Virus record (IMG/VR): IMGVR_UViG_2695420809_000016
Coordinates: 1 to 22,618 of that record
Source: a virus
Taxonomy: Duplodnaviria; Heunggongvirae; Uroviricota; Caudoviricetes
DNA: 22,618 nucleotides
Strand: one strand, 5' to 3'
Program-made: the position numbers and the translations under genes
Part shown: positions 1 through 16,889 of the stretch, in pieces
How the letters are laid out: each line of letters starts with the position of its first letter
How positions within the stretch are numbered: position 1 is the first letter of the stretch
The notes under the pieces: generated by a model
What the model was told of the DNA's origin: nothing
Database searches by the model: none
Seen by the model: only the letters and a program-made list of their open reading frames with translations

Positions 1-573
1 CCAGATGACATCCGGCGCGGTGCTGGTATCTGTTGCCGTCACCGCGTCAATGTAATCCAGCACAGCGTTAAGCCGGGTTGTTTCTGCCTGCGTCAGTTTC
101 CGCCCGGCCTGTAATTTCAGCTGAATCGGACTAATGGAAGCCATTGCTGCATCAATCAGTGACTGGCGCTGTGCTTCTGCCGCTTCTACTGCGGCACCGT
201 GTTGTGCCTCAGTATCTGTCACCCATTTCTCACCATCCCATTTATCATATGGCGTTAACGGTGAAAGCGTGACATAACCGTTTTTGATGGCACCGATATA
301 ATCCACTGTAACAGCAGCACCATTTTCGATTGAGTAAACAGTCTCATTGCGATGGTCTTCTTCATGGCTCCATCCCTTACCTGTAAATACTGCCACTTTT
401 CCCGGAATGTTTTCGCCCGGGTCAATACCAGTGGAACAGGCGGGCATACTTACACCAGTATTAATATATTCATCAGACCAGCCCGTATATTCATACGTTA
501 CTGCATCATAATAAAAACAACGCATATCACCCGGCACTGTAGCCAGTCCATTTTCATCAAAAACAGGTTTCAT
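1..573 (-). CDS. G: Tail fibre assembly protein (gpG-like), 3' end truncated by window edge
   Basis: Minus-strand ATG at 573..571 overlaps the stop of H (ATGA-type overlap). I checked the frame by hand: no stop down to position 1 (191 codons, MKPVFDENGLATVPG...TDTSTAPDVIW). Not in the ORF track because no stop lies inside the window. Confidence 0.8.
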   Translation of the reverse strand, partial: MKPVFDENGLATVPGDMRCFYYDAVTYEYTGWSDEYINTGVSMPACSTGIDPGENIPGKVAVFTGKGWSHEEDHRNETVYSIENGAAVTVDYIGAIKNGYVTLSPLTPYDKWDGEKWVTDTEAQHGAAVEAAEAQRQSLIDAAMASISPIQLKLQAGRKLTQAETTRLNAVLDYIDAVTATDTSTAPDVIW

Positions 574-1856
574 TATTTAGCCCTCACCAGAAAGTTAAAT
601 GCAATGTTACGTGGTCTGACGGCAATAAAATTAACACCATCTCCTACTGAGTTACTGGTGTACTGAAATCGAGAGAAACCTGGCTGGTGTGCTGATATTC
701 CATCGTAATCAGCAATCGCATGGCCGGACCCTTCTGGATAATTACCGCCAAATTGCGATAAAGATGTTGCTGCCTGCCAGCTTAATAATGCTCGCCCACT
801 GTCCGCCCCTCGCCCATCATCCCAGATACGAATGAAATCACCGCGGGCTTCAGGTAATACCAGCGAAGGAAACACTTTTGCCAGCACAGGGTAATCAGAG
901 GCAGAAAATTTCACCCCGTTGAACTTCAAAAACACCATACTGGACCAGCTGTCGATTACGGTATTTGGCATTGCAGCGGACGGCCAGAAGAACGGAACGC
1001 CAATAGCTGGAGCACCTTCTCCCAAACCAAGGTATGCGAGAAGACCGGCAACATCCTTTCCACTCAAATGAGTCAGCGTCTCATCCAGTGGCTGCTTACC
1101 TGACAGCGCATTGTTAATGGTGGTGCTGAATTTCGGGTCATTGTTAATGGCCGCGGCAATTTCTTTCAGTGTATCCAGCGTGGCTGGCGCGCCGTTAATC
1201 AGAGCGGTAATAGCGGCCTGAACAAACGCAGTAGTCGCAATCCGCGTGGTGTTATTTCCTGCGGGAGGTGTCGGCGCTTTTGGTTCTCCGGTAAATGTCG
1301 GATTATGTTTCTGCGCATACTGGGTATGAGGATCCTGTGCGGCAATGTGGTTTCTCATCTGTTCATCCACATACAGCTTTAATTCCAGGACTTCATCATC
1401 CACGTATTTACGGGTCGCCAGTACCACCGACGGGTCGATTTTCAGCGTAATAGCTTCGGTATTCGTGACAACCAGAATCATGCGGATAGTCTGGGTACGA
1501 CCACTGCCTTCCTGCAACTGCGGTTTGTAAGTTTCCGGGCAGTTCGCCACCGCAATGAGTACGCCTTCATCATCATAAAGCCCAATCTCACGGATCCAGA
1601 ATCCGCCCTCGTTCTCAGGGATGATTTGCTCCGCAATAATCTGGCTCTGGTTGTTCGGGTCAACACTCAGAAGATTCAGCGGCGCGATGCGTTTCTGGTT
1701 AATCAGTTTTGTCTGTGCCGGGTCTGGTGTCGGCAAGACACCATTCGCATCACCAACGGCCATTTGCGTCAGATTCAGCTTACTGCCGAGCATCGTCGCG
1801 TTAGCCAGCCGTGCTGCGCCCTGATTAGTCAGAATGGCGTAGTATTTCACTGTCAT
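573..1856 (-). CDS. H: Tail fibre protein (gpH-like), 427 aa, with a tail-collar-like C-terminal region
   Basis: N-terminus (MTVKYYAILTNQGAARLA...MAVGDANG...GGFWIREIGLYDDEGVLIAVAN...SGRTQT) has the conserved P2 gpH architecture. The C-terminal stretch SDYPVLAKVFPSLVLPEARGDFIRIWDDGRGADSGRALLSWQ resembles the phage tail-collar motif. Position between I and G. Confidence 0.9.
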   Translation of the reverse strand: MTVKYYAILTNQGAARLANATMLGSKLNLTQMAVGDANGVLPTPDPAQTKLINQKRIAPLNLLSVDPNNQSQIIAEQIIPENEGGFWIREIGLYDDEGVLIAVANCPETYKPQLQEGSGRTQTIRMILVVTNTEAITLKIDPSVVLATRKYVDDEVLELKLYVDEQMRNHIAAQDPHTQYAQKHNPTFTGEPKAPTPPAGNNTTRIATTAFVQAAITALINGAPATLDTLKEIAAAINNDPKFSTTINNALSGKQPLDETLTHLSGKDVAGLLAYLGLGEGAPAIGVPFFWPSAAMPNTVIDSWSSMVFLKFNGVKFSASDYPVLAKVFPSLVLPEARGDFIRIWDDGRGADSGRALLSWQAATSLSQFGGNYPEGSGHAIADYDGISAHQPGFSRFQYTSNSVGDGVNFIAVRPRNIAFNFLVRAK

Positions 1857-2464
1857 GCGTTTACTCTCAGGTTATCAATTAAATGAATGGCCGAGGCCGG
1901 GAAATAATCCCCTCCGACAATAATGGCCTCCGGGGTGTAGGGATAAACCGTCAGGGAGTCACCGTGATAGCATCCCGCACCGGCAAAAATGTTGCCGGTT
2001 GTACTTAAACTGATAGCCAGTCCCGTCAGATGGCGGCTTGCCGGTTTTGCATCAGCAACGAGGCGCTCCAGCTCCTGATACATTTCCTCGGTAATACCCT
2101 GCTCAAGCACGCCGACAACGATACGGAACGTCCCCGGCTCCTCGTTGAGCTGCCACCACTCCCTTACCTCAATCAGATAGCCGAGCGGCTCCACCACACG
2201 GCGAATCGCACCAATAGTGCCCTTATGACAGTGGATGAAATACGCATCGCGGATAACAGCGCGTTTTGTCGCTTCCGGCCAATTATCATCCCAGCGGTCA
2301 ACCGAAAATGACCACGCCAGCCACGGCAGCAGATTTGCCGGGCAGGTGTCCGGGTTCCACAGCTCACGAATACTGACCGGCGTTTTTTCAATTTCCGCAC
2401 AGGCTTTTGCGGCGGCAACTTCAAGCGGTGATGAGCCGGTCGGCAGCAGTCGCGAATCACTCAT
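1853..2464 (-). CDS. I: Baseplate assembly protein gpI
   Basis: 203-aa ORF, MSDSRLLPTGSSPLEVAAAKA...WNPDTCPANLLPWLAWSFSVDRWDDNWPEATKR, typical gpI N-terminus. Start overlaps the J stop; position J-I-H. Confidence 0.9.
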   Translation of the reverse strand: MSDSRLLPTGSSPLEVAAAKACAEIEKTPVSIRELWNPDTCPANLLPWLAWSFSVDRWDDNWPEATKRAVIRDAYFIHCHKGTIGAIRRVVEPLGYLIEVREWWQLNEEPGTFRIVVGVLEQGITEEMYQELERLVADAKPASRHLTGLAISLSTTGNIFAGAGCYHGDSLTVYPYTPEAIIVGGDYFPASAIHLIDNLRVNA

Positions 2465-3369: not shown

Positions 3370-3717
3370 TCAACTCACAGGGATGGTTAACGAAAGTGGC
3401 TGGCCGGTATCGTTGTGCCGGCCGGTTAACGTGACCGTCATTCGCCCGTCAAAACTGCGCTCAGTGGTGACGGATGACAGGGTGACGCGGGGTTCCCATT
3501 TCAGCACCGCCATGTAACAGGCGACCTTAATCTGCAACTCAAGCGCCGGGGTCTGCGGCTGGTCAATCATTGACGCCAGCAACGAGCCGTAATCACGACG
3601 CATCACCCGTGAGCCGACCGGTGTGCGCAGGATATCGCCGATACTCTGGCTGATATGCTCAAGGTCAGTGACCGTCAGGCCATCACTGCGATTCATTCCG
3701 AGATAACGCGCTGTCAT
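3370..3717 (-). CDS. W: Baseplate wedge protein gpW (gp25-like)
   Basis: 115 aa, same length as P2 gpW; position V-W-J. Confidence 0.9.
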   Translation of the reverse strand: MTARYLGMNRSDGLTVTDLEHISQSIGDILRTPVGSRVMRRDYGSLLASMIDQPQTPALELQIKVACYMAVLKWEPRVTLSSVTTERSFDGRMTVTLTGRHNDTGQPLSLTIPVS

Positions 3718-4355
3718 TTTGTCCCCTGTGTCCAGTTGTCTCCTGACTTAACACCACCGTGACCGTGGTCATCCACCTGAACGCCGTTAGAAGTGAATTT
3801 CCCGTCGGTATGCTCGATGTTGCCGTGCATCTTCCCGCCCTTCTGCACTTCCAGCGTGCCGGTAGTCAGCTTGTTGGTGCAGACCACCTCCGGTGTGTCC
3901 AGGGTGACGCGGGCTGACGCTTTCACCATGACCACCGGCACCGTGGCGGTAACAGAATCAGAAGCCGTCACGCTGGCCGTTTTAATTCCGCTTACCGTGA
4001 GTGCACTGGTTTCGGGTTCATACTCAATCACCGCCCCGTCAGGGAAACGGATATGCAGGGCATCCGCCGACGCAGACGGCGCGGGGTTATCGCCGGAATA
4101 AATCCCCGGCAGAACGAACGCCGTGTCGAGTTCACCGCCCACAGACAGAATCAGCACCTGTTCCCCCACGGAAGGTGCCCACCATGTGCGCGAACGTCCT
4201 GCGCGATGGGTCAGCCACTGAAGCCAGTCGGTGCACATGCCGCCGGTCTGCACGCGGCAGCGACCGGCGTTAAGGTCGGTTTCGACGATAATGCCGGTGC
4301 GAATCATGTTGCGCAGTGCGCGCGCGAGTTCCTGAATATTTGCGAGAGTGTTCAT
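3714..4355 (-). CDS. V: Baseplate spike / central fibre protein gpV
   Basis: The ORF-track start at 4373 is a TTG. The first ATG, at 4355..4353, gives MNTLANIQELARALRNMIR..., which I recognise as the gpV N-terminus (213 aa). Stop overlaps the W start. Confidence 0.85.
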   Translation of the reverse strand: MNTLANIQELARALRNMIRTGIIVETDLNAGRCRVQTGGMCTDWLQWLTHRAGRSRTWWAPSVGEQVLILSVGGELDTAFVLPGIYSGDNPAPSASADALHIRFPDGAVIEYEPETSALTVSGIKTASVTASDSVTATVPVVMVKASARVTLDTPEVVCTNKLTTGTLEVQKGGKMHGNIEHTDGKFTSNGVQVDDHGHGGVKSGDNWTQGTK

Positions 4356-4438
4356 GCATGTGAGATTGCACAATATATAAAAGTTATGCTATCTGGATTC
4401 ATTTGTAGAACTACCAGACAACATTCAAGGAGAGCGTA

Positions 4439-5224
4439 ATGGTCAGCTATAATGTGACTAATGTGTGGGGGCTAATCGTTTTTTTCCTTTGTAGCTTTGC
4501 AGTATTAGCATTTTTTAGCTTTGGTAAAAGTAACCTTATGAGGCTTATTGCACATTATTTCAATTTTGGATATTCAGACAAAAAATTAAAAAGACTGGAC
4601 CGCGAGTGGCGCGACATTCAACTATTTAAAATACTTAACGGAATCAATGTATCAGGCATCGAAGATGTGAGAATGATACAGCAGGGGCTGATTGATGGAA
4701 AACTAAAAACATCGTATTTTTTCCTTACTCGCATCTGGGGTGACATAACAAAAACACCACACATAATTAAAACAATAATCGTAATTCCGGCCAGTATTAT
4801 TTATATTCTCTTCGCATGCTACATACACAATGAACAATCCGCTATAGTAAGGGATGCCATAGGTATACCATATAAAAATATGATGTACTATGTTTATAGT
4901 GACAAAGTTCTTTTATCCTTCAAAAATAAAACAGTTGAATTTAATAAAACTTATAGCCTTGCCGATTGCAAGACCCTGCAAAACGTATTTATAAAAGACA
5001 CACTCCCTGAAATCGCCTGCAATAAGCTCTTACAGCTAAACGAGGAGGACTCCGAATGGTTAAGTCAGGAGATTAAAGATAATAACAGCCACAGAAAAAC
5101 ATTATTAATAATATCCCTAACCTATTTCATTTCAGGTCTGCTTATATTCCTGTCATATACAAAATTCCTTTACGCCAATAAGAAGGTTTTAGAATACAAA
5201 GCATCAAATAAAAACCACTCATAA
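4439..5224 (+). CDS. Hypothetical membrane protein (about 3 predicted TM helices), AT-rich cargo gene at the P2 orf30 position
   Basis: 261-aa ORF on the strand opposite to the flanking tail genes. Strong SD (AAGGAGAG) about 7 nt before the ATG. Hydrophobic segments GLIVFFLCSFAVLAFFSF, IIKTIIVIPASIIYILFACYI and LLIISLTYFISGLLIFLSY. AT-rich by eye compared with the backbone. Confidence 0.75.
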   Translation: MVSYNVTNVWGLIVFFLCSFAVLAFFSFGKSNLMRLIAHYFNFGYSDKKLKRLDREWRDIQLFKILNGINVSGIEDVRMIQQGLIDGKLKTSYFFLTRIWGDITKTPHIIKTIIVIPASIIYILFACYIHNEQSAIVRDAIGIPYKNMMYYVYSDKVLLSFKNKTVEFNKTYSLADCKTLQNVFIKDTLPEIACNKLLQLNEEDSEWLSQEIKDNNSHRKTLLIISLTYFISGLLIFLSYTKFLYANKKVLEYKASNKNHS

Positions 5225-5230
5225 ACCTCT

Positions 5231-5265
5231 AAACATTGAGCGACCAGCACGGCCGCTCAATGTTT
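5231..5265. terminator. Perfect 12-bp inverted repeat (AAACATTGAGCG, 11-nt loop, CGCTCAATGTTT) between convergent genes; likely bidirectional terminator
   Basis: Read directly from the sequence at 5231..5242 and 5254..5265. It lies between the stop of the 4439..5224 ORF and the stop of S. Flanking T-tracts are weak. Confidence 0.45.
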
Positions 5266-5295
5266 AATTGCGCATCAGCCTCTGCCTGGATAAAA

Positions 5296-5748
5296 CTAAC
5301 GCTCAAGGTGAGCCAGGATAATCTCTTCAATCATCTGCACATCCTCACCGGTAAAGCCGAGCAGAGGACGCGCCGGATAATCAATTTTCTTACCGTCTTT
5401 TCGGTTTTCTTCCGACAGACCGAACTGATGCACACTGGCGATTTTCGGTGACTTTCCGCCGTAAAACTCCATTGAGGCCTGTTCAGGGCTGGCGTGGATA
5501 TGCAAAAAACGACTGGTGATAAGTTTCGCAAACATTTTTCGCTTAACGCGACCGGTCTTTTTTCTGGCGCTCTGCTGCTGACGTGGCGCGTAGGGTGTGC
5601 CGTCCGGGGCTTTCTGTGCCATCACCCGACGCTGCTGACTCTGTCGCAGACGCTTCGCCAGTTCGGCACTCAGTCGCCGACGCCCTGACGGTGACAGCGA
5701 TTCAATCAGTCCGGTCAGCCGGTCTTCAAAACGCTTAAACTCATTCAT
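5296..5748 (-). CDS. S: Tail completion protein gpS
   Basis: 150 aa, same length as P2 gpS; start overlaps the stop of R. Confidence 0.9.
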   Translation of the reverse strand: MNEFKRFEDRLTGLIESLSPSGRRRLSAELAKRLRQSQQRRVMAQKAPDGTPYAPRQQQSARKKTGRVKRKMFAKLITSRFLHIHASPEQASMEFYGGKSPKIASVHQFGLSEENRKDGKKIDYPARPLLGFTGEDVQMIEEIILAHLER

Positions 5749-14978: not shown

Positions 14979-15005
14979 TTGATCCTTTTATTGGTACATT
15001 ATAAT
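14979..15005 (+). promoter_or_regulatory. Candidate sigma70 promoter in the AT-rich island
   Basis: Perfect TATAAT at 15000..15005 with TTGATC 15 bp upstream (TTGATA 21 bp upstream). The spacing is not ideal, so this is tentative. Confidence 0.3.
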
Positions 15006-15372
15006 GCGATATTATCGGTCTTTAACAACTTGGCTGAGTTCTATCTTACCAATTTTCGTGATAAGCATTTAATCAATTACGTAGTATGGTTAAAGGCACA
15101 CAAAGGAGAAAAATATGCGAATGCATTTTTTAGACAACCGACTTCCAAAAATCTTTTCAACGTAATACAAAAAAATTACAAACATCTATCAATTACAAAT
15201 TAACAAATATCAACACTACCAGCTTAATTGCAGCAAATATCAGGAGATAACATCACTACAACAATAAATCAAAAACTGTTAGATTTGGCCAGAAATGCCA
15301 ACTCCACACATAACTTCACGCAGATACATAGTTCATAATTAAACAATTTATCGACTTGGAGCGAATAGAATA

Positions 15373-16377
15373 ATGTCAAAAGAAAACACACCAATGGAAC
15401 CAAGCATAAATATAAAGGCAGACTTCACTGAGATATTAAATTCATCGCCAAAGGGCGTTAAGTATATATTCAATATTCTCTTCGGAAAAAAACACGCAGA
15501 GGCCGAGAGAAGGATTAGGCTATCGAACGCTCAAGATTATGCAGATATGAAAAAAATCATATCTGGAGAAGCAACATATGATAATGAGAAGAACCAAATA
15601 ACACCTTCTAACCAAGACATTAAGTCATTAATTGTTAGCGCATTGCAGGATGAGGAAATTACAAATCTTATAGGCTGCATCAGAAGCGCCTCAGAATACA
15701 TTAAAGATGATACTGATAACGATGGTGGTCCATCCCAAGACTTTATTAACAGATGGCGAAGCGATGCGAAACTAATCAGTGAACAGTCTATCCAGTACGT
15801 TTGGGGGCGAATTCTAGCGGAAGAAATAAACACACCTCAAACTGTAAGCGTAAGAACCCTTGATGTAATAAAAAACCTATCAAAAGAAGAGGCTGAATAT
15901 TTCTCAGAGGCACTTGACTTTATATTTTACGATTCTTATTTGATTGATAATGGAGATACCAAAAATCCATTCATCTCACCAGAAAAAGGTCATAAATTGA
16001 GAGATGCAGGATTAATAGTTACTTTTACTCCTGGAATGTATCGCTCCGGGACATGGGATACACAACGTTTTGTTCTCAGCGGAGCCACCATACCAAAAGT
16101 ATTCTACATCAGCAGTTCTGATAAGTATTACTTTATCGATGCAGGCAAAATAACTGACGACCCTAAAATTCTGGTATGGGAGTTAACAAATGCCGGCAAA
16201 GAATTATATGAAATTCTAAAGAAAGATCATAAAACCAAAGAAGAATCAGTAAAAAAAATTATTGACTGGATATTAAATAGCACTAAAGCTTCTGAGTTTT
16301 ACTATGGAGATATTGTTAAGCATTCAGACAATAGTCTGTCAGTTGAGAACTTACTGACTATAAGCAGAAATAGATAG
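15373..16377 (+). CDS. Hypothetical acidic protein (334 aa), cargo gene at the cos–A junction (P2 tin/old hotspot position); candidate anti-phage or accessory function
   Basis: Long ATG-initiated ORF in an AT-rich island, opposite in orientation to the early operon, with GGAG upstream. No Walker A, HNH or obvious PD-(D/E)xK motif seen by eye. I do not recognise the family. Confidence 0.8.
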   Translation: MSKENTPMEPSINIKADFTEILNSSPKGVKYIFNILFGKKHAEAERRIRLSNAQDYADMKKIISGEATYDNEKNQITPSNQDIKSLIVSALQDEEITNLIGCIRSASEYIKDDTDNDGGPSQDFINRWRSDAKLISEQSIQYVWGRILAEEINTPQTVSVRTLDVIKNLSKEEAEYFSEALDFIFYDSYLIDNGDTKNPFISPEKGHKLRDAGLIVTFTPGMYRSGTWDTQRFVLSGATIPKVFYISSSDKYYFIDAGKITDDPKILVWELTNAGKELYEILKKDHKTKEESVKKIIDWILNSTKASEFYYGDIVKHSDNSLSVENLLTISRNR

Positions 16378-16682
16378 AACATTAAAACAAGACCCCATAT
16401 CTAATCAGTATGCGAACAGGCAAGAACATCCGTTTTTGTCTGTTCCTTTCAAAACAACTACCCGCATCTCCATAATACTAAAAGATATTTTCCTTTTATT
16501 CAAACCCACAATAATGTTTACGCTCAATAATAAAAAACATCAGAATATTTTTTAACTCCTACACAGCTTGTTTCTCAATCCCGTTGTGTATATCATCAGG
16601 ACCAAGACATTTCACACCAGTGTTATCCATCACTTGTTCAGAAATCATCGCTACTTTTATGACAGAGTAGTGACTCTATATA

Positions 16683-16889
16683 CTAAGAATTACGACCACC
16701 CTTATTATCCTGACTTTCATCAATAAAGAAAATAATACCGCCAGCTTTATCTCTTGGTGAATAAGGAGGGCCAGTGCTAACCAGATAACTGCCTATATGA
16801 ATTAACTTGTTGTCATTAGCTCCACTCCATTTCTGTTGAATACCCCGGCCACTCATCAGCGACCGCATAACTGAATTTTTTCTCGCCAT
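16683..16889 (-). CDS. Small hypothetical ORF overlapping the 3' end of gene A (P2 orf91 position)
   Basis: 68-aa ORF downstream of and partly overlapping A (A stop at 16816). Position corresponds to orf91 of P2, but I do not recognise the sequence; it may be spurious. Confidence 0.3.
   Translation of the reverse strand: MARKNSVMRSLMSGRGIQQKWSGANDNKLIHIGSYLVSTGPPYSPRDKAGGIIFFIDESQDNKGGRNS

What the first reader, a model, noticed from the sequence alone, without database searches (positions are those of the whole stretch)
4374..5295. Second AT-rich island between V and S encoding a three-helix membrane protein on the opposite strand
Between the baseplate operon (V-W-J-I-H-G) and the end of the head/lysis/tail-completion operon (ending in S) lies a low-GC ORF of 261 aa with a strong SD and three predicted transmembrane segments, transcribed against the flanking late genes. 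This is the position of orf30 in P2, a known foreign insertion of unknown function. A small phage-borne membrane protein expressed independently of the late genes is the typical profile of a superinfection-exclusion or abortive-infection factor.
Basis: partly seen in the sequence, partly recalled or inferred. Interest (0 to 1): 0.6.

Follow-up and report, generated by a model that had tools for sequence, protein, structure and literature searches.

The report
Phage P2 orf30 membrane-protein cassette
This AT-rich island is the long-known but still uncharacterised orf30 gene of phage P2: a three-helix inner-membrane protein sitting in a swap-prone slot that in related prophages often holds genes with anti-phage-type domains, so an envelope-level anti-phage role is plausible but unproven.

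Summary
A 940-bp island (GC 0.355, flanks about 0.57) fills the whole gap between the gpV start codon and the gpS stop codon. It carries one 261-aa ORF (4439..5224, +) with an AAGGAG Shine-Dalgarno sequence, three hydrophobic segments and a strong terminator hairpin.

It is not merely at the orf30 position. It is P2 orf30 itself: 96% DNA and 93% protein identity, a full-length phrog_2407 match, annotated "nonessential", function unknown.

Further results:
- **Family.** A deep search shows a wider family (20-34% identity) that links to Pfam DUF6216.
- **Position.** Distant members occupy the same S-V slot, antisense, in other P2-like prophages.
- **The slot.** It is empty in 27 and occupied in 49 of 76 diverse prophages, always by AT-rich cargo. 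That cargo includes domains typical of phage-defence systems.
- **Regulation.** A 2026 preprint reports that the BL21 DUF6216 gene, which I located in this slot, is H-NS-bound and derepressed without H-NS/StpA.
- **Structure.** The AlphaFold model (pLDDT 83) has no significant structural relative.

Superinfection exclusion or abortive infection remains an inference by association. The gene is already known; its function is not.

The parts
3714..4355 (-). gpV (baseplate spike), first gene of the V-W-J-I-H-G late operon and left boundary of the island. The true start is the ATG at 4355, not the TTG at 4373 that the ORF lister reports.
   Evidence: Pfam Phage_base_V 1.1e-20 and Phage_spike 3.5e-27. 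P2 annotation transferred by alignment. Sequence divergence between empty and occupied junctions begins directly after this ATG.
4356..5295 (.). AT-rich orf30 cassette. It makes up the entire S-V intergenic region: 940 bp here, against a 66-bp unrelated spacer in relatives that lack it.
   Evidence: GC 0.355 against about 0.57 in the flanks. Among 80 close relatives the junction is 940 bp with orf30 in 27, 66 bp in 51, and 1039 bp with other cargo in 2. Boundaries.
4397..4424 (-). Activator (Ogr) binding site of the divergent late promoter pV, transferred from the P2 annotation. It ends 14 nt upstream of the orf30 ATG.
   Evidence: P2 record AF063097 feature 'activator binding site; activation of pV promoter' at locus L001 1698-1725, which maps to window +2699. 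The upstream 110 nt are identical to P2. An ACACAAC half-site recurs upstream of distant family members.
4427..4432 (+). Shine-Dalgarno sequence AAGGAG, 6 nt before the start codon.
   Evidence: Read directly from the sequence.
4439..5224 (+). orf30 CDS, 261 aa. Predicted inner-membrane protein, N-terminus out and C-terminus in.
   Evidence: ORF. 244/261 residues identical to P2 Orf30 AAD03281. phrog_2407 match over 1-261/261, E 4e-145. dN/dS is 0.22-0.33 in the soluble loops.
4463..4522 (+). TM1 (aa 9-28).
   Evidence: Kyte-Doolittle 19-residue window up to 2.41. AlphaFold helix 6-40.
4523..4762 (+). Loop 1 (aa 29-108), predicted cytoplasmic helical domain. It holds the family's conserved Q61, G68, D76 and G87.
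   Evidence: 14 K/R against 8 D/E. Family mean net charge +5.7. Conserved columns in alignment A3. Helices 48-67 and 74-85.
4763..4822 (+). TM2 (aa 109-128).
   Evidence: Hydropathy up to 2.35. Helix 109-134.
4823..5095 (+). Loop 2 (aa 129-219), predicted periplasmic beta/alpha domain carrying the conserved cysteine pair C177/C194.
   Evidence: Net charge about 0 and a mean of about two Cys in this loop across the family (2.1 in A3, 2.0 in A4). C194 invariant and C177 at least 90% conserved. Four strands 141-173 plus helices. Both Cys align with the Cys pair of BL21-type DUF6216.
5096..5158 (+). TM3 (aa 220-240), followed by a basic C-terminal tail (aa 241-261) with conserved N247 and K254.
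   Evidence: Hydropathy up to 2.15; tail has 5 K/R against 1 D/E. Helix 202-260. Conserved columns.
5230..5266 (.). Hairpin with a 13-bp perfect stem, 5 nt after the orf30 stop codon. P2 annotates it as the rho-independent terminator of the convergent O (head/lysis/R-S) operon. It could plausibly also terminate orf30.
   Evidence: P2 annotation. Folding energy -22.0 kcal/mol (+ strand) and -27.9 (- strand), z = -5.1 and -5.3, with 0 of 200 shuffles folding as well.
5296..5748 (-). gpS (tail completion), last gene of the O operon and right boundary of the island.
   Evidence: Pfam Phage_tail_S 7e-44. P2 annotation.

Best explanation
SHOWN. The island is the orf30 cassette of a P2-type prophage. 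It is a self-contained, AT-rich, single-gene accessory module that replaces the whole S-V intergenic spacer.

PREDICTED. The product is a 3-TM membrane protein. From hydropathy, the positive-inside rule and the AlphaFold model, I place the N-terminus outside, an 80-aa helical loop in the cytoplasm, a 90-aa beta/alpha loop with a conserved Cys pair in the periplasm, and a basic tail in the cytoplasm. It belongs to phrog_2407, which links to Pfam DUF6216.

INFERRED. The protein serves the lysogen rather than the virion. The most likely role is an envelope-level anti-phage factor of the superinfection-exclusion type. In that model it sits in the inner membrane, its periplasmic domain and membrane helices interfere with genome entry by an incoming phage, and the conserved cytoplasmic domain contacts a host or phage partner. 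It would probably be kept at low expression by H-NS, as reported for the BL21 gene in the same slot.

Confidence differs by layer. Identity with P2 orf30 is essentially certain. An anti-phage role of any kind is about 0.45. The specific DNA-entry-block mechanism is about 0.3.
For: Identity:
- 96.3% DNA identity to P2 across the island plus flanks.
- 93% protein identity to P2 Orf30, annotated 'nonessential'.

Real, constrained protein:
- dN/dS is 0.22-0.33 in the loops, and 0.43 overall against 0.036 for gpS at similar dS.
- 38 representatives were found among 1.84 billion proteins, many of them full length at 20-34% identity.
- Conserved columns lie on both sides of the membrane.

Topology:
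- Charge bias and cysteine placement are consistent across both subfamilies.
- The AlphaFold model has pLDDT 82.8 and pTM 0.70.

DUF6216 link:
- 10 of 25 family members hit PF19723, best E 8.7e-7.
- hhalign between the two subfamilies gives E 2.6e-5 with the Cys pairs aligned.
- The BL21(DE3) 'DUF6216 family protein' occupies the same antisense S-V slot.

The slot carries defence-type cargo:
- Of 76 diverse P2-like prophages, 49 carry AT-rich cargo there (49 sequence clusters) and 27 are empty. The Orf30 family is the largest single cluster.
- Cargo domains include RelA_SpoT, AriA/PtuA/Old-like ATPases, RVT, TIR, caspase, AGS_C/cyclase, putAbiC and DUF4917.
- A published survey notes P2 defence hotspots within the tail genes and between int and att (PMC13586616).

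Hints that it benefits the lysogen:
- The Pantoea homologue overlaps int by 8 nt on the cI-int strand.
- Intact copies remain in decayed prophages or after prophage loss.

Regulation:
- H-NS ChIP peak on, and hns/stpA-dependent derepression of, the BL21 DUF6216 gene (bioRxiv 10.64898/2026.09.05.749240).
Against: - There is no direct functional evidence for any member of the family.
- There is no homology to known exclusion or defence proteins. PADLOC gave nothing. PHROGs gave only an unknown-function family. NCBIfam gave nothing. YmfE/Kunado gave hhalign probability 0.1%.
- No convincing or conserved sigma-70 promoter lies upstream, so expression in the lysogen is unproven.
- In the H-NS preprint, hns/stpA deletion did not change T5 or Gostya9 plating in the Eco1-deleted BL21 strain. 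The derepressed BL21 homologue therefore gives no visible protection against those phages.
- The best-conserved motifs are cytoplasmic. That is not what one expects if target specificity resided only in the periplasmic domain.
- Guilt by association is weak here, because the slot also carries non-defence cargo (methylase, Hcp-Tlde1, Sel1).
Confidence: 0.4

Rival explanations
1. Abortive-infection effector. Orf30 is a dormant inner-membrane protein that, on sensing an infection cue through its cytoplasmic domain, oligomerises or opens and depolarises the membrane. The infected cell dies before phage release.
For: - Same contextual evidence as the main explanation: a slot carrying defence-type cargo, a single stand-alone gene, an AT-rich H-NS-type island.
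- The most conserved motifs (Q61, G68, D76, G87) lie in the predicted cytoplasmic loop, where a sensor would sit.
- H-NS silencing would fit a potentially toxic product.
Against: - No similarity to any Abi or PADLOC model.
- Three TM helices per monomer and no pore-like features are recognisable in the model.
- No toxicity data exist.
- No partner (antitoxin or sensor) gene is consistently adjacent.
Confidence: 0.15
2. Lysogenic-conversion membrane protein unrelated to phage defence. Candidate roles are immunity to a membrane-targeting bacteriocin, tailocin or T6SS effector, or modulation of an envelope or transport function that aids host fitness.
For: - The slot also carries clearly non-antiviral cargo, such as Hcp + Tlde1 and Sel1-repeat proteins.
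- Small polytopic membrane proteins with a periplasmic disulfide are a typical format for immunity proteins. This is general knowledge, not tested here.
- One homologue lies next to a divergently oriented DsbA-like gene.
- One homologue lies in a non-phage context.
- The derepressed BL21 homologue gave no protection against T5-like phages.
Against: - No cognate toxin gene accompanies the family.
- There are no significant hits to immunity families. The colicin-K immunity hit, E 0.11 in a single member, is noise.
- Most cargo with recognisable domains at the slot is defence-like.
Confidence: 0.2
3. A phage-benefit function in the lytic cycle, such as fine-tuning lysis timing, tail/baseplate assembly at the membrane, or protecting the producing cell from re-adsorbing progeny.
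For: - It lies between the tail-completion and baseplate operons, 14 nt from the pV activator site.
- The BL21 homologue has a weak holin-family hit, E 0.037, not significant.
Against: - Annotated nonessential in P2.
- Absent from 51 of 80 close relatives and from Wphi, which are viable phages.
- Antisense to both late operons.
- Retained intact in defective prophages that have lost S, portal or head genes.
- A homologue sits beside int at a prophage end.
Confidence: 0.1
4. A selfish or decaying passenger with no current function, retained only because it hitch-hikes in a recombination-prone slot.
For: - Overall dN/dS (0.43) is about 12 times that of gpS.
- dN/dS is at or above 1 in TM1 and TM3.
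- No known phenotype has emerged in decades of P2 genetics (PMC2771037).
Against: - All 27 copies from close relatives, plus the P2 and E. coli B copies, are full-length 786-nt genes, and the 26 distinct alleles translate without internal stops.
- The loops are under clear purifying selection, 0.22-0.33.
- A family spanning 20-34% identity keeps its length, topology, Cys pair and motifs.
- The gene is present at 482 sites in 464 of 5426 complete E. coli genomes.
Confidence: 0.05

Closest known systems
Bacteriophage P2 Orf30 (AAD03281; PHROG phrog_2407)
   Same: Same gene. It is 93% identical over all 261 residues, lies at the same S-V position in the same antisense orientation, and has an identical upstream 110 nt and the same terminator.
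   Different: There are 17 amino-acid substitutions, most of them in or next to the TM segments. No E. coli complete genome or phage record in the collections searched carries this exact allele; the best match is 96.2-96.5% DNA identity.
Pfam DUF6216 (PF19723), e.g. E. coli BL21(DE3) WP_000115390.1
   Same: - Same antisense S-V slot in a 186/P2-like prophage remnant.
- Same length class (268 aa) and the same 3-TM, N-out topology with a two-Cys periplasmic loop.
- Same GC, about 0.33.
- Profile-profile match E 2.6e-5 over TM2, loop 2 and TM3.
   Different: - Pairwise BLASTP is not significant.
- The window protein itself has no Pfam hit.
- The cytoplasmic loop is shorter (about 48 against 84 aa) and the C-tail longer.
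- The loop-1 motifs are not shared, because the hhalign match starts only at TM2.
Known inner-membrane superinfection-exclusion proteins, e.g. e14 YmfE/Kunado. T4 Imm, P22 SieA and HK97 gp15 are cited from general knowledge only.
   Same: It has the same format: a small, prophage-encoded polytopic inner-membrane protein, encoded as a single gene in an AT-rich island of the H-NS-silenced type. YmfE was shown to block T5-like phages after adsorption (bioRxiv 10.64898/2026.09.05.749240).
   Different: No sequence relationship exists: hhalign to YmfE gives probability 0.1%, and there are no PHROG or PADLOC hits to annotated exclusion families. No phenotype is known. The derepressed BL21 homologue did not affect T5 or Gostya9.
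P2 accessory/defence hotspots (old-tin between gpA and gpQ; Z/fun in the tail region)
   Same: The S-V junction behaves the same way: a slot with clean boundaries between conserved genes, AT-rich cargo, very high turnover (49 clusters in 49 occupied loci) and cargo with defence-type domains.
   Different: In P2-type coliphages proper it has low diversity, with only three states among 80 close relatives. It is not analysed as a hotspot in Rousset 2022 or in the iLund4u preprint. The cargo replaces the pV promoter and O-operon terminator region rather than sitting next to cos.

Membership tests
P2 Orf30 / phrog_2407 | Full-length match to the family profile | tested here: met
   phrog_2407 E 4.3e-145, residues 1-261 on profile positions 1-261/261. 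All 25 members of alignment A3 hit the same PHROG.
P2 Orf30 / phrog_2407 | Located between gpS and gpV, antisense to both | tested here: met
   The same holds for distant members P0006, P0008, P0024 and P0028 and for six genome loci.
Pfam DUF6216 (PF19723) | Score at or above the Pfam gathering threshold (27.3 bits) | tested here: not met
   The window protein has no Pfam hit at E up to 1. The four relatives scored individually are below threshold: P0034 24.3 bits, P0006 17.2 bits, P0043 14.8 bits, P0008 no hit. 10 of 25 relatives hit the family at E up to 1, best 8.7e-7. BL21 WP_000115390.1 passes with 44.5 bits.
Pfam DUF6216 (PF19723) | Profile-level homology to bona fide DUF6216 proteins | tested here: inconclusive
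   hhalign of A3 against A4: probability 74.6%, E 2.6e-5, 157 columns, Cys pairs aligned. This is supportive but not decisive, and it covers only the C-terminal 60% of the protein.
Pfam DUF6216 (PF19723) | Shared architecture: about 260 aa, 3 TM, N-out, two-Cys loop 2 | tested here: met
   Charge bias and cysteine counts in both alignments. Alignments.
Superinfection-exclusion proteins (functional class) | Inner-membrane localisation | tested here: inconclusive
   Predicted only. Support comes from three hydrophobic helices, the positive-inside rule and the AlphaFold model. There are no experimental data.
Superinfection-exclusion proteins (functional class) | Expressed from the prophage in the lysogenic state | not testable with these tools
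   Indirect evidence only. No sigma-70 consensus lies upstream. The Pantoea homologue overlaps int on the cI-int strand. The BL21 homologue is H-NS-bound and up-regulated in the hns/stpA mutant.
Superinfection-exclusion proteins (functional class) | Blocks infection after adsorption, at DNA entry, without killing the cell | not testable with these tools
   Needs plating-efficiency, adsorption and DNA-entry assays.
Superinfection-exclusion proteins (functional class) | Homology to a characterised exclusion family | tested here: not met
   PADLOC 0 hits. PHROGs gives only an unknown-function family. YmfE hhalign probability 0.1%. No structural match in PDB or BFVD.
Abortive-infection systems | Match to a known Abi/defence model, or infection-triggered toxicity | tested here: not met
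   No PADLOC or Pfam Abi hit. Toxicity is not testable here.
Cargo of a P2-like accessory/defence hotspot | Slot between conserved core genes with presence/absence polymorphism and diverse AT-rich cargo that includes known defence domains | tested here: met
   Close relatives: 27 orf30, 51 empty, 2 other. Diverse species: 49 occupied and 27 empty, cargo GC 0.31-0.47, 49 clusters among 63 proteins. Defence domains.
Holin / lysis proteins | Match to a holin family and position in the lysis cassette | tested here: not met
   The window protein has no hit. The BL21 homologue gives only E 0.037 to Phage_holin_2_3. The gene lies outside the lysis cassette and antisense to it.

The most novel reading that the evidence does not exclude
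Orf30/phrog_2407 together with DUF6216 forms a widespread, so far unrecognised family of single-gene, H-NS-silenced inner-membrane anti-phage proteins with a fold of their own. Its usual home, the S-V junction, would then be an overlooked defence hotspot of P2-like prophages across Enterobacterales. The family's persistently low GC (0.33-0.35 in every lineage examined, despite only 20-34% protein identity) would be maintained by selection for xenogeneic silencing rather than reflecting recent acquisition.
Probability: 0.3. Interest if true: 0.6.

Novelty: already known. Interest (0 to 1): 0.35.

Why it matters
orf30 is one of the last genes of the model phage P2 without a function. It occurs in about 9% of complete E. 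coli genomes (464 of 5426) and at roughly a quarter of P2-type S-V junctions (482 of 1803 sites).

This analysis turns a vague "foreign ORF" into a set of testable statements:
- a defined topology;
- a conserved periplasmic cysteine pair;
- conserved cytoplasmic motifs;
- a link to Pfam DUF6216;
- an indication from a related gene that lack of phenotype in the laboratory may be due to H-NS silencing.

It also shows that the S-V junction is a rich, little-studied cargo slot carrying genes with defence-type domains. If the anti-phage role holds, this would add a new structural class of envelope-level defence and a further hotspot to mine. If it does not, the gene remains an ordinary, already catalogued accessory gene.

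Tried and rejected
**Single-sequence family searches.** Pfam, NCBIfam and PADLOC gave nothing. The word-indexed protein search found only alleles at 81% identity or higher. The exhaustive phmmer search was needed to reach distant relatives.

**First AlphaFold run.** With five near-identical sequences it was unusable (pLDDT 50). The 25-sequence alignment fixed this.

**Fold searches.**
- Foldseek against PDB and BFVD gave nothing significant.
- The recurring claudin/TARP-like hits have TM-scores of 0.2 or less, and I reject them as evidence.
- The afdb50 library was unavailable.

**PDB sequence-profile search.** Only noise.

**Homology to the Sie-like protein YmfE/Kunado.** Rejected: hhalign probability 0.1%.

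**Promoter search.** The consensus scan finds no site upstream of the ATG. No promoter-like element is conserved among 12 family members.

**H-NS high-affinity motif TCGATAAATT.** No match at 2 mismatches or fewer inside the island, and matches across the window are not enriched over chance. H-NS control of this copy is therefore inferred only from AT-richness and from the BL21 homologue.

**Rfam.** Only a spurious miRNA hit on the terminator hairpin.

**Locating the BL21 gene.** I first looked for the BL21 prophage at yegQ-yegR, where E. coli B-DolR has its P2 remnant. BL21(DE3) has none there. The relevant remnant is at 872-893 kb.

**Positive selection.** dN/dS at or above 1 in TM1 and TM3 rests on few sites and on hydrophobic-for-hydrophobic swaps. 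I do not claim positive selection.

**The 271-aa membrane protein in locus L099.** It is at the Z/fun position and is not a family member.
Full report
**1. The observation**

The ORF lister returns a 261-aa ATG-initiated ORF at 4439..5224 on the + strand. It lies between two minus-strand genes whose products match Pfam Phage_base_V/Phage_spike (gpV) and Phage_tail_S (gpS).

GC drops from 0.56-0.63 in the flanks to 0.34-0.38 in the island.

A stop-free run of this length is not a chance event in such AT-rich DNA. The probability is about 4e-9 from the island's composition, and the longest run in 2000 shuffles was 183 codons against 271 observed.

An AAGGAG Shine-Dalgarno sequence sits 6 nt before the ATG. 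Three segments exceed a Kyte-Doolittle mean of 2.1 over 19 residues: aa 9-28, 109-128 and 220-240.

The V start is the ATG at 4355, so the island is 4356-5295, not 4374-5295.

**2. Identity**

Megablast of 4200-5500 against the phage collection gives 96.3% identity over the full length to bacteriophage P2 (AF063097). There the ORF is annotated "orf30: Orf30, nonessential".

The proteins are 244/261 identical with no gaps. The PHROG match is end to end: phrog_2407, unknown function, E 4e-145.

The 110 nt upstream of the ATG are identical to P2. The P2 annotation therefore transfers directly:
- The Ogr-activator site of the divergent late promoter pV is at 4397-4424.
- The O-operon terminator is at 5230-5266.

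The terminator is a 13-bp perfect hairpin with z about -5 on both strands, so it could terminate the convergent orf30 transcript as well.

The whole window is a P2-species prophage, about 96.8% identical to P2 relatives from position 2028 onward.

The literature describes orf30 as a 786-bp ORF of unknown function inserted between S and V. It is absent from Wphi and L-413C, and the site is one of three loci where P2-like phages carry horizontally acquired genes (PMC2771037; PMC3091744; PMC6823313). I found no paper that assigns it a function.

**3. Presence/absence and boundaries**

Among 80 IMG/VR loci whose gpS is at least 98% identical to this one:
- 51 have a 66-bp S-V spacer;
- 27 have the 940-bp orf30 cassette;
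- 2 have a different 1039-bp AT-rich cargo.

The sequences diverge immediately after the V start codon and re-converge at the S stop codon. The entire intergenic region is therefore exchanged, including the pV promoter region and the terminator. There are no flanking repeats.

In complete E. coli genomes, orf30 is present at 482 sites in 464 of 5426 genomes, always chromosomal. P2-type gpS is present at 1803 sites in 1576 genomes. No record carries this exact allele; the best is 96.2-96.5%.

**4. A wider family and the link to DUF6216**

The word-indexed search found only alleles at 81% identity or higher. An exhaustive phmmer search over 1.84 billion representatives found 38 proteins at E up to 1e-3. 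Many of them are full length, 250-270 aa, at 20-34% identity.

A 25-sequence alignment gives these conserved columns:
- invariant: G68, G87, C194, I212;
- near-invariant: Q61, D76, C177, N247, K254.

All 25 sequences hit phrog_2407. Ten of the 25 hit Pfam DUF6216 (PF19723), best E 8.7e-7. The window protein itself does not, and the four relatives I scored individually fall below the gathering score.

Following a mention of a "DUF6216" gene in a preprint on H-NS and immunity, I located that gene in BL21(DE3). It is WP_000115390.1 (268 aa), and it lies antisense between gpS and gpV of the retron-Eco1-bearing 186/P2-like remnant, which is the same slot.

Pairwise BLASTP between the two proteins is not significant. 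A profile-profile comparison of the two subfamilies gives E 2.6e-5 (probability 75%) over 157 columns. The match spans TM2, loop 2 and TM3, and the two cysteines of each family align.

Both subfamilies share the same charge pattern: a neutral short N-terminus, a strongly positive loop 1, a neutral loop 2 holding a mean of about two Cys, and a positive tail.

I conclude that Orf30 is a divergent branch of a DUF6216 superfamily. I record that formal Pfam membership is not met for this sequence.

**5. Structure**

With the 25-sequence alignment, AlphaFold gives mean pLDDT 82.8 and pTM 0.70. The elements are:
- a long TM1 helix (6-40);
- cytoplasmic helices 48-67 and 74-85;
- TM2 (109-134);
- a four-stranded sheet (141-173) plus two short helices that carry the Cys pair;
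- a very long TM3 helix (202-260).

I found no significant structural relative:
- Foldseek against PDB and BFVD gives nothing at E below 0.03 and no TM-score above 0.25.
- The sequence profile finds no PDB relative.

The fold has no recognisable relative in the libraries available. The full AlphaFold database library could not be searched.

**6. Genomic contexts of distant members**

| Member | Identity to window protein | Context |
|---|---|---|
| P0006 | 32% | Antisense in the S-V junction of another P2-like prophage |
| P0008 | 30% | Same |
| P0024 | 25% | Same |
| P0028 | 19% | Same, beside a DUF4062 protein |
| P0022 + P0036 | 23%, 18% | Tandem pair next to gpV in a truncated prophage |
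| Six further members | not measured | Antisense in the S-V junction, found in a one-genome-per-species sample |
| P0043 (Pantoea) | 24% | At the prophage end, overlapping the 3' end of int by 8 nt, same strand as cI-YebY-int |
| P0045, P0017 | 24%, 23% | Same chromosomal site (Pantoea sp. ARC270 and metagenome contigs) with no prophage genes called beside them |
| P0047 | 25% | Non-phage neighbourhood |
| P0020 | 23% | Next to a divergently oriented DsbA-like gene on a short contig |

E. coli B-DolR keeps an intact orf30 (91% DNA identity) in a P2 remnant whose S and portal genes are truncated.

No partner gene is consistently adjacent, so the family acts as a single-gene module.

Every member examined has GC 0.33-0.35, whatever the flanks (0.51-0.59). 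Against loci L094 and L096, the neighbouring gpV, gpW and gpR are 60-78% identical and gpS is 47% identical, while the Orf30 homologues are only 32-33% identical.

**7. Selection**

Among 26 distinct orf30 alleles, dN/dS is 0.43. For gpS it is 0.036 at about the same dS of 0.13.

| Region | dN/dS |
|---|---|
| TM1 | 1.15 |
| Loop 1 | 0.33 |
| TM2 | 0.48 |
| Loop 2 | 0.22 |
| TM3 | 1.77 |
| Tail | 0.41 |

The soluble domains are under purifying selection, so this is a working protein. The helices change freely. That may be no more than hydrophobic exchange, and I do not claim positive selection.

**8. The S-V junction as a cargo slot**

I sampled 80 P2-like loci, one genome per species, and 76 could be scored. 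The junction is empty (60-76 bp) in 27 and occupied (0.8-4.6 kb, GC 0.31-0.47) in 49.

The 63 cargo proteins of at least 150 aa fall into 49 sequence clusters. The Orf30 family is the largest cluster, with 6 members. Twenty-one of the 63 have at least two predicted TM segments.

Domains found in the cargo:
- RelA_SpoT;
- AAA_15/AAA_21 ATPases that match AriA, PtuA and Old-type PADLOC models;
- DUF4917;
- reverse transcriptase;
- caspase;
- TIR;
- AGS_C/cyclase;
- putAbiC;
- HigB;
- also a cytosine methylase, Hcp + Tlde1, Sel1 repeats and 8xMP membrane proteins.

A 2026 survey of P2 and P4 reports minor P2 defence hotspots "within the tail genes" and between int and att (PMC13586616). Neither that text, Rousset et al. 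2022 nor the iLund4u preprint discusses orf30 or the S-V junction by name.

**9. Expression**

No sigma-70-like site is found upstream of the ATG at the scan's threshold. None is conserved across 12 family members. The island contains no match to the H-NS high-affinity motif.

The only experimental information concerns the BL21 homologue. It has an H-NS ChIP-seq peak and is transcriptionally up-regulated in the hns/stpA mutant.

The same paper reports that hns/stpA deletion did not alter T5 or Gostya9 plating once retron Eco1 was deleted. The derepressed homologue therefore gives no visible protection against those two phages.

**10. Interpretation**

Firmly established:
- the gene's identity;
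- its reality as a constrained coding sequence;
- its family;
- its modular, single-gene nature;
- its position in a high-turnover slot.

Its three-TM membrane topology rests on prediction only.

What it does is inferred. A role for the lysogen rather than the virion is favoured on four grounds:
- It is nonessential and absent from most relatives.
- It is antisense to the late operons.
- It survives in defective prophages.
- One homologue overlaps the 3' end of int on the cI-int strand.

Among lysogen-benefit roles, an anti-phage function is the best supported, because of the company the gene keeps in this slot. An envelope-level block (superinfection exclusion) fits a polytopic inner-membrane protein with a structured periplasmic domain better than an enzymatic mechanism does.

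An abortive membrane effector, a non-antiviral conversion or immunity function, and a subtle lytic-cycle role remain open. I put about 0.45 on anti-phage function overall and about 0.3 on exclusion specifically.

**11. Novelty and score**

The feature is already known and catalogued: P2 orf30, phrog_2407.

What this analysis adds is context:
- the DUF6216 link;
- a confident structural model with no significant structural relative;
- the conserved topology and Cys pair;
- the breadth of S-V cargo;
- a pointer to H-NS silencing.

These additions make the old question of what orf30 does directly testable. They do not answer it. Interest: 0.35.

Noticed in passing
window 15000-16800 (ORF 15373..16377 +): The other AT-rich island (GC 0.33-0.39) lies between the portal-side and gpA-side genes, which is the old/tin hotspot position. 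It encodes a 334-aa DUF2806 protein (E 7e-19) with no PADLOC hit. An exact H-NS high-affinity motif, TCGATAAATT, sits just upstream at 15345-15354.
   Followed up: partly
window 1-2027: Similarity to P2-species phages starts only at about 2028. The first 2 kb has lower GC (0.47-0.52) and includes the C-terminal part of the tail-fibre gene (573..1856 -, Phage_tail_fib N-terminus). This suggests a swapped host-range module.
   Followed up: no
window 4356-4373: The mechanical ORF list extends gpV to a TTG at 4373.
   Followed up: yes
loci L094, L096, L086, L087 and window 4439-5224: Every Orf30/DUF6216 family member examined has GC 0.33-0.35, although the members are only about 20-35% identical to each other and sit in flanks of GC 0.51-0.59. 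Low GC persists over a depth of divergence at which amelioration would be expected. That points either to selection for AT-richness (for example H-NS control) or to repeated re-acquisition from an AT-rich pool.
   Followed up: partly
L100 7001-7771 and 7900-8658: Two divergent Orf30-family paralogues (P0022 and P0036) lie in tandem next to gpV in a truncated P2-like remnant flanked by chromosomal genes.
   Followed up: partly
L087 6974-8777 (Pantoea sp. S-LA4): An Orf30-family gene overlaps the 3' end of the integrase gene by 8 nt, on the same strand as cI-YebY-int, at the very end of a 186-like prophage. Co-transcription with the lysogenic genes is possible but not shown. In a second Pantoea genome (L090) and in metagenome contigs (L181, L182) the gene remains at the same chromosomal site with no prophage genes called beside it.
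   Followed up: partly
L099 5965-6899: In this P2-like prophage the S-V slot also carries a 180-aa protein with an HExxH motif (HEFVH) and a 133-aa DUF7480 protein with a lipoprotein-like signal peptide. Both lie upstream of the Orf30-family gene on the same strand, and they could be a toxin/immunity-like pair.
   Followed up: no
L101-L180 S-V junctions (e.g. L103 5537-6625, L139 5537-7006, L183 6877-8214): Cargo in the S-V slot includes a RelA/SpoT-domain protein, a caspase-domain protein beside an Orf30 homologue, a DUF4062 protein beside another, an Hcp + Tlde1 pair, a reverse transcriptase, and TIR and cyclase/AGS_C proteins. The published hotspot surveys I read do not analyse the slot by name.
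   Followed up: partly
L097 66-1743: One family member (P0020) lies next to a divergently oriented DsbA/thioredoxin-like gene. This is suggestive given the family's conserved periplasmic Cys pair, but it is a single short contig.
   Followed up: no
L025 / L032 S-V junction (1039 bp): Two close P2 relatives carry a different AT-rich cargo at the slot, in the same orientation as orf30. It may correspond to the 741-bp ORF described at this position in phage R18C, and it appears to be interrupted by an in-frame stop.
   Followed up: no
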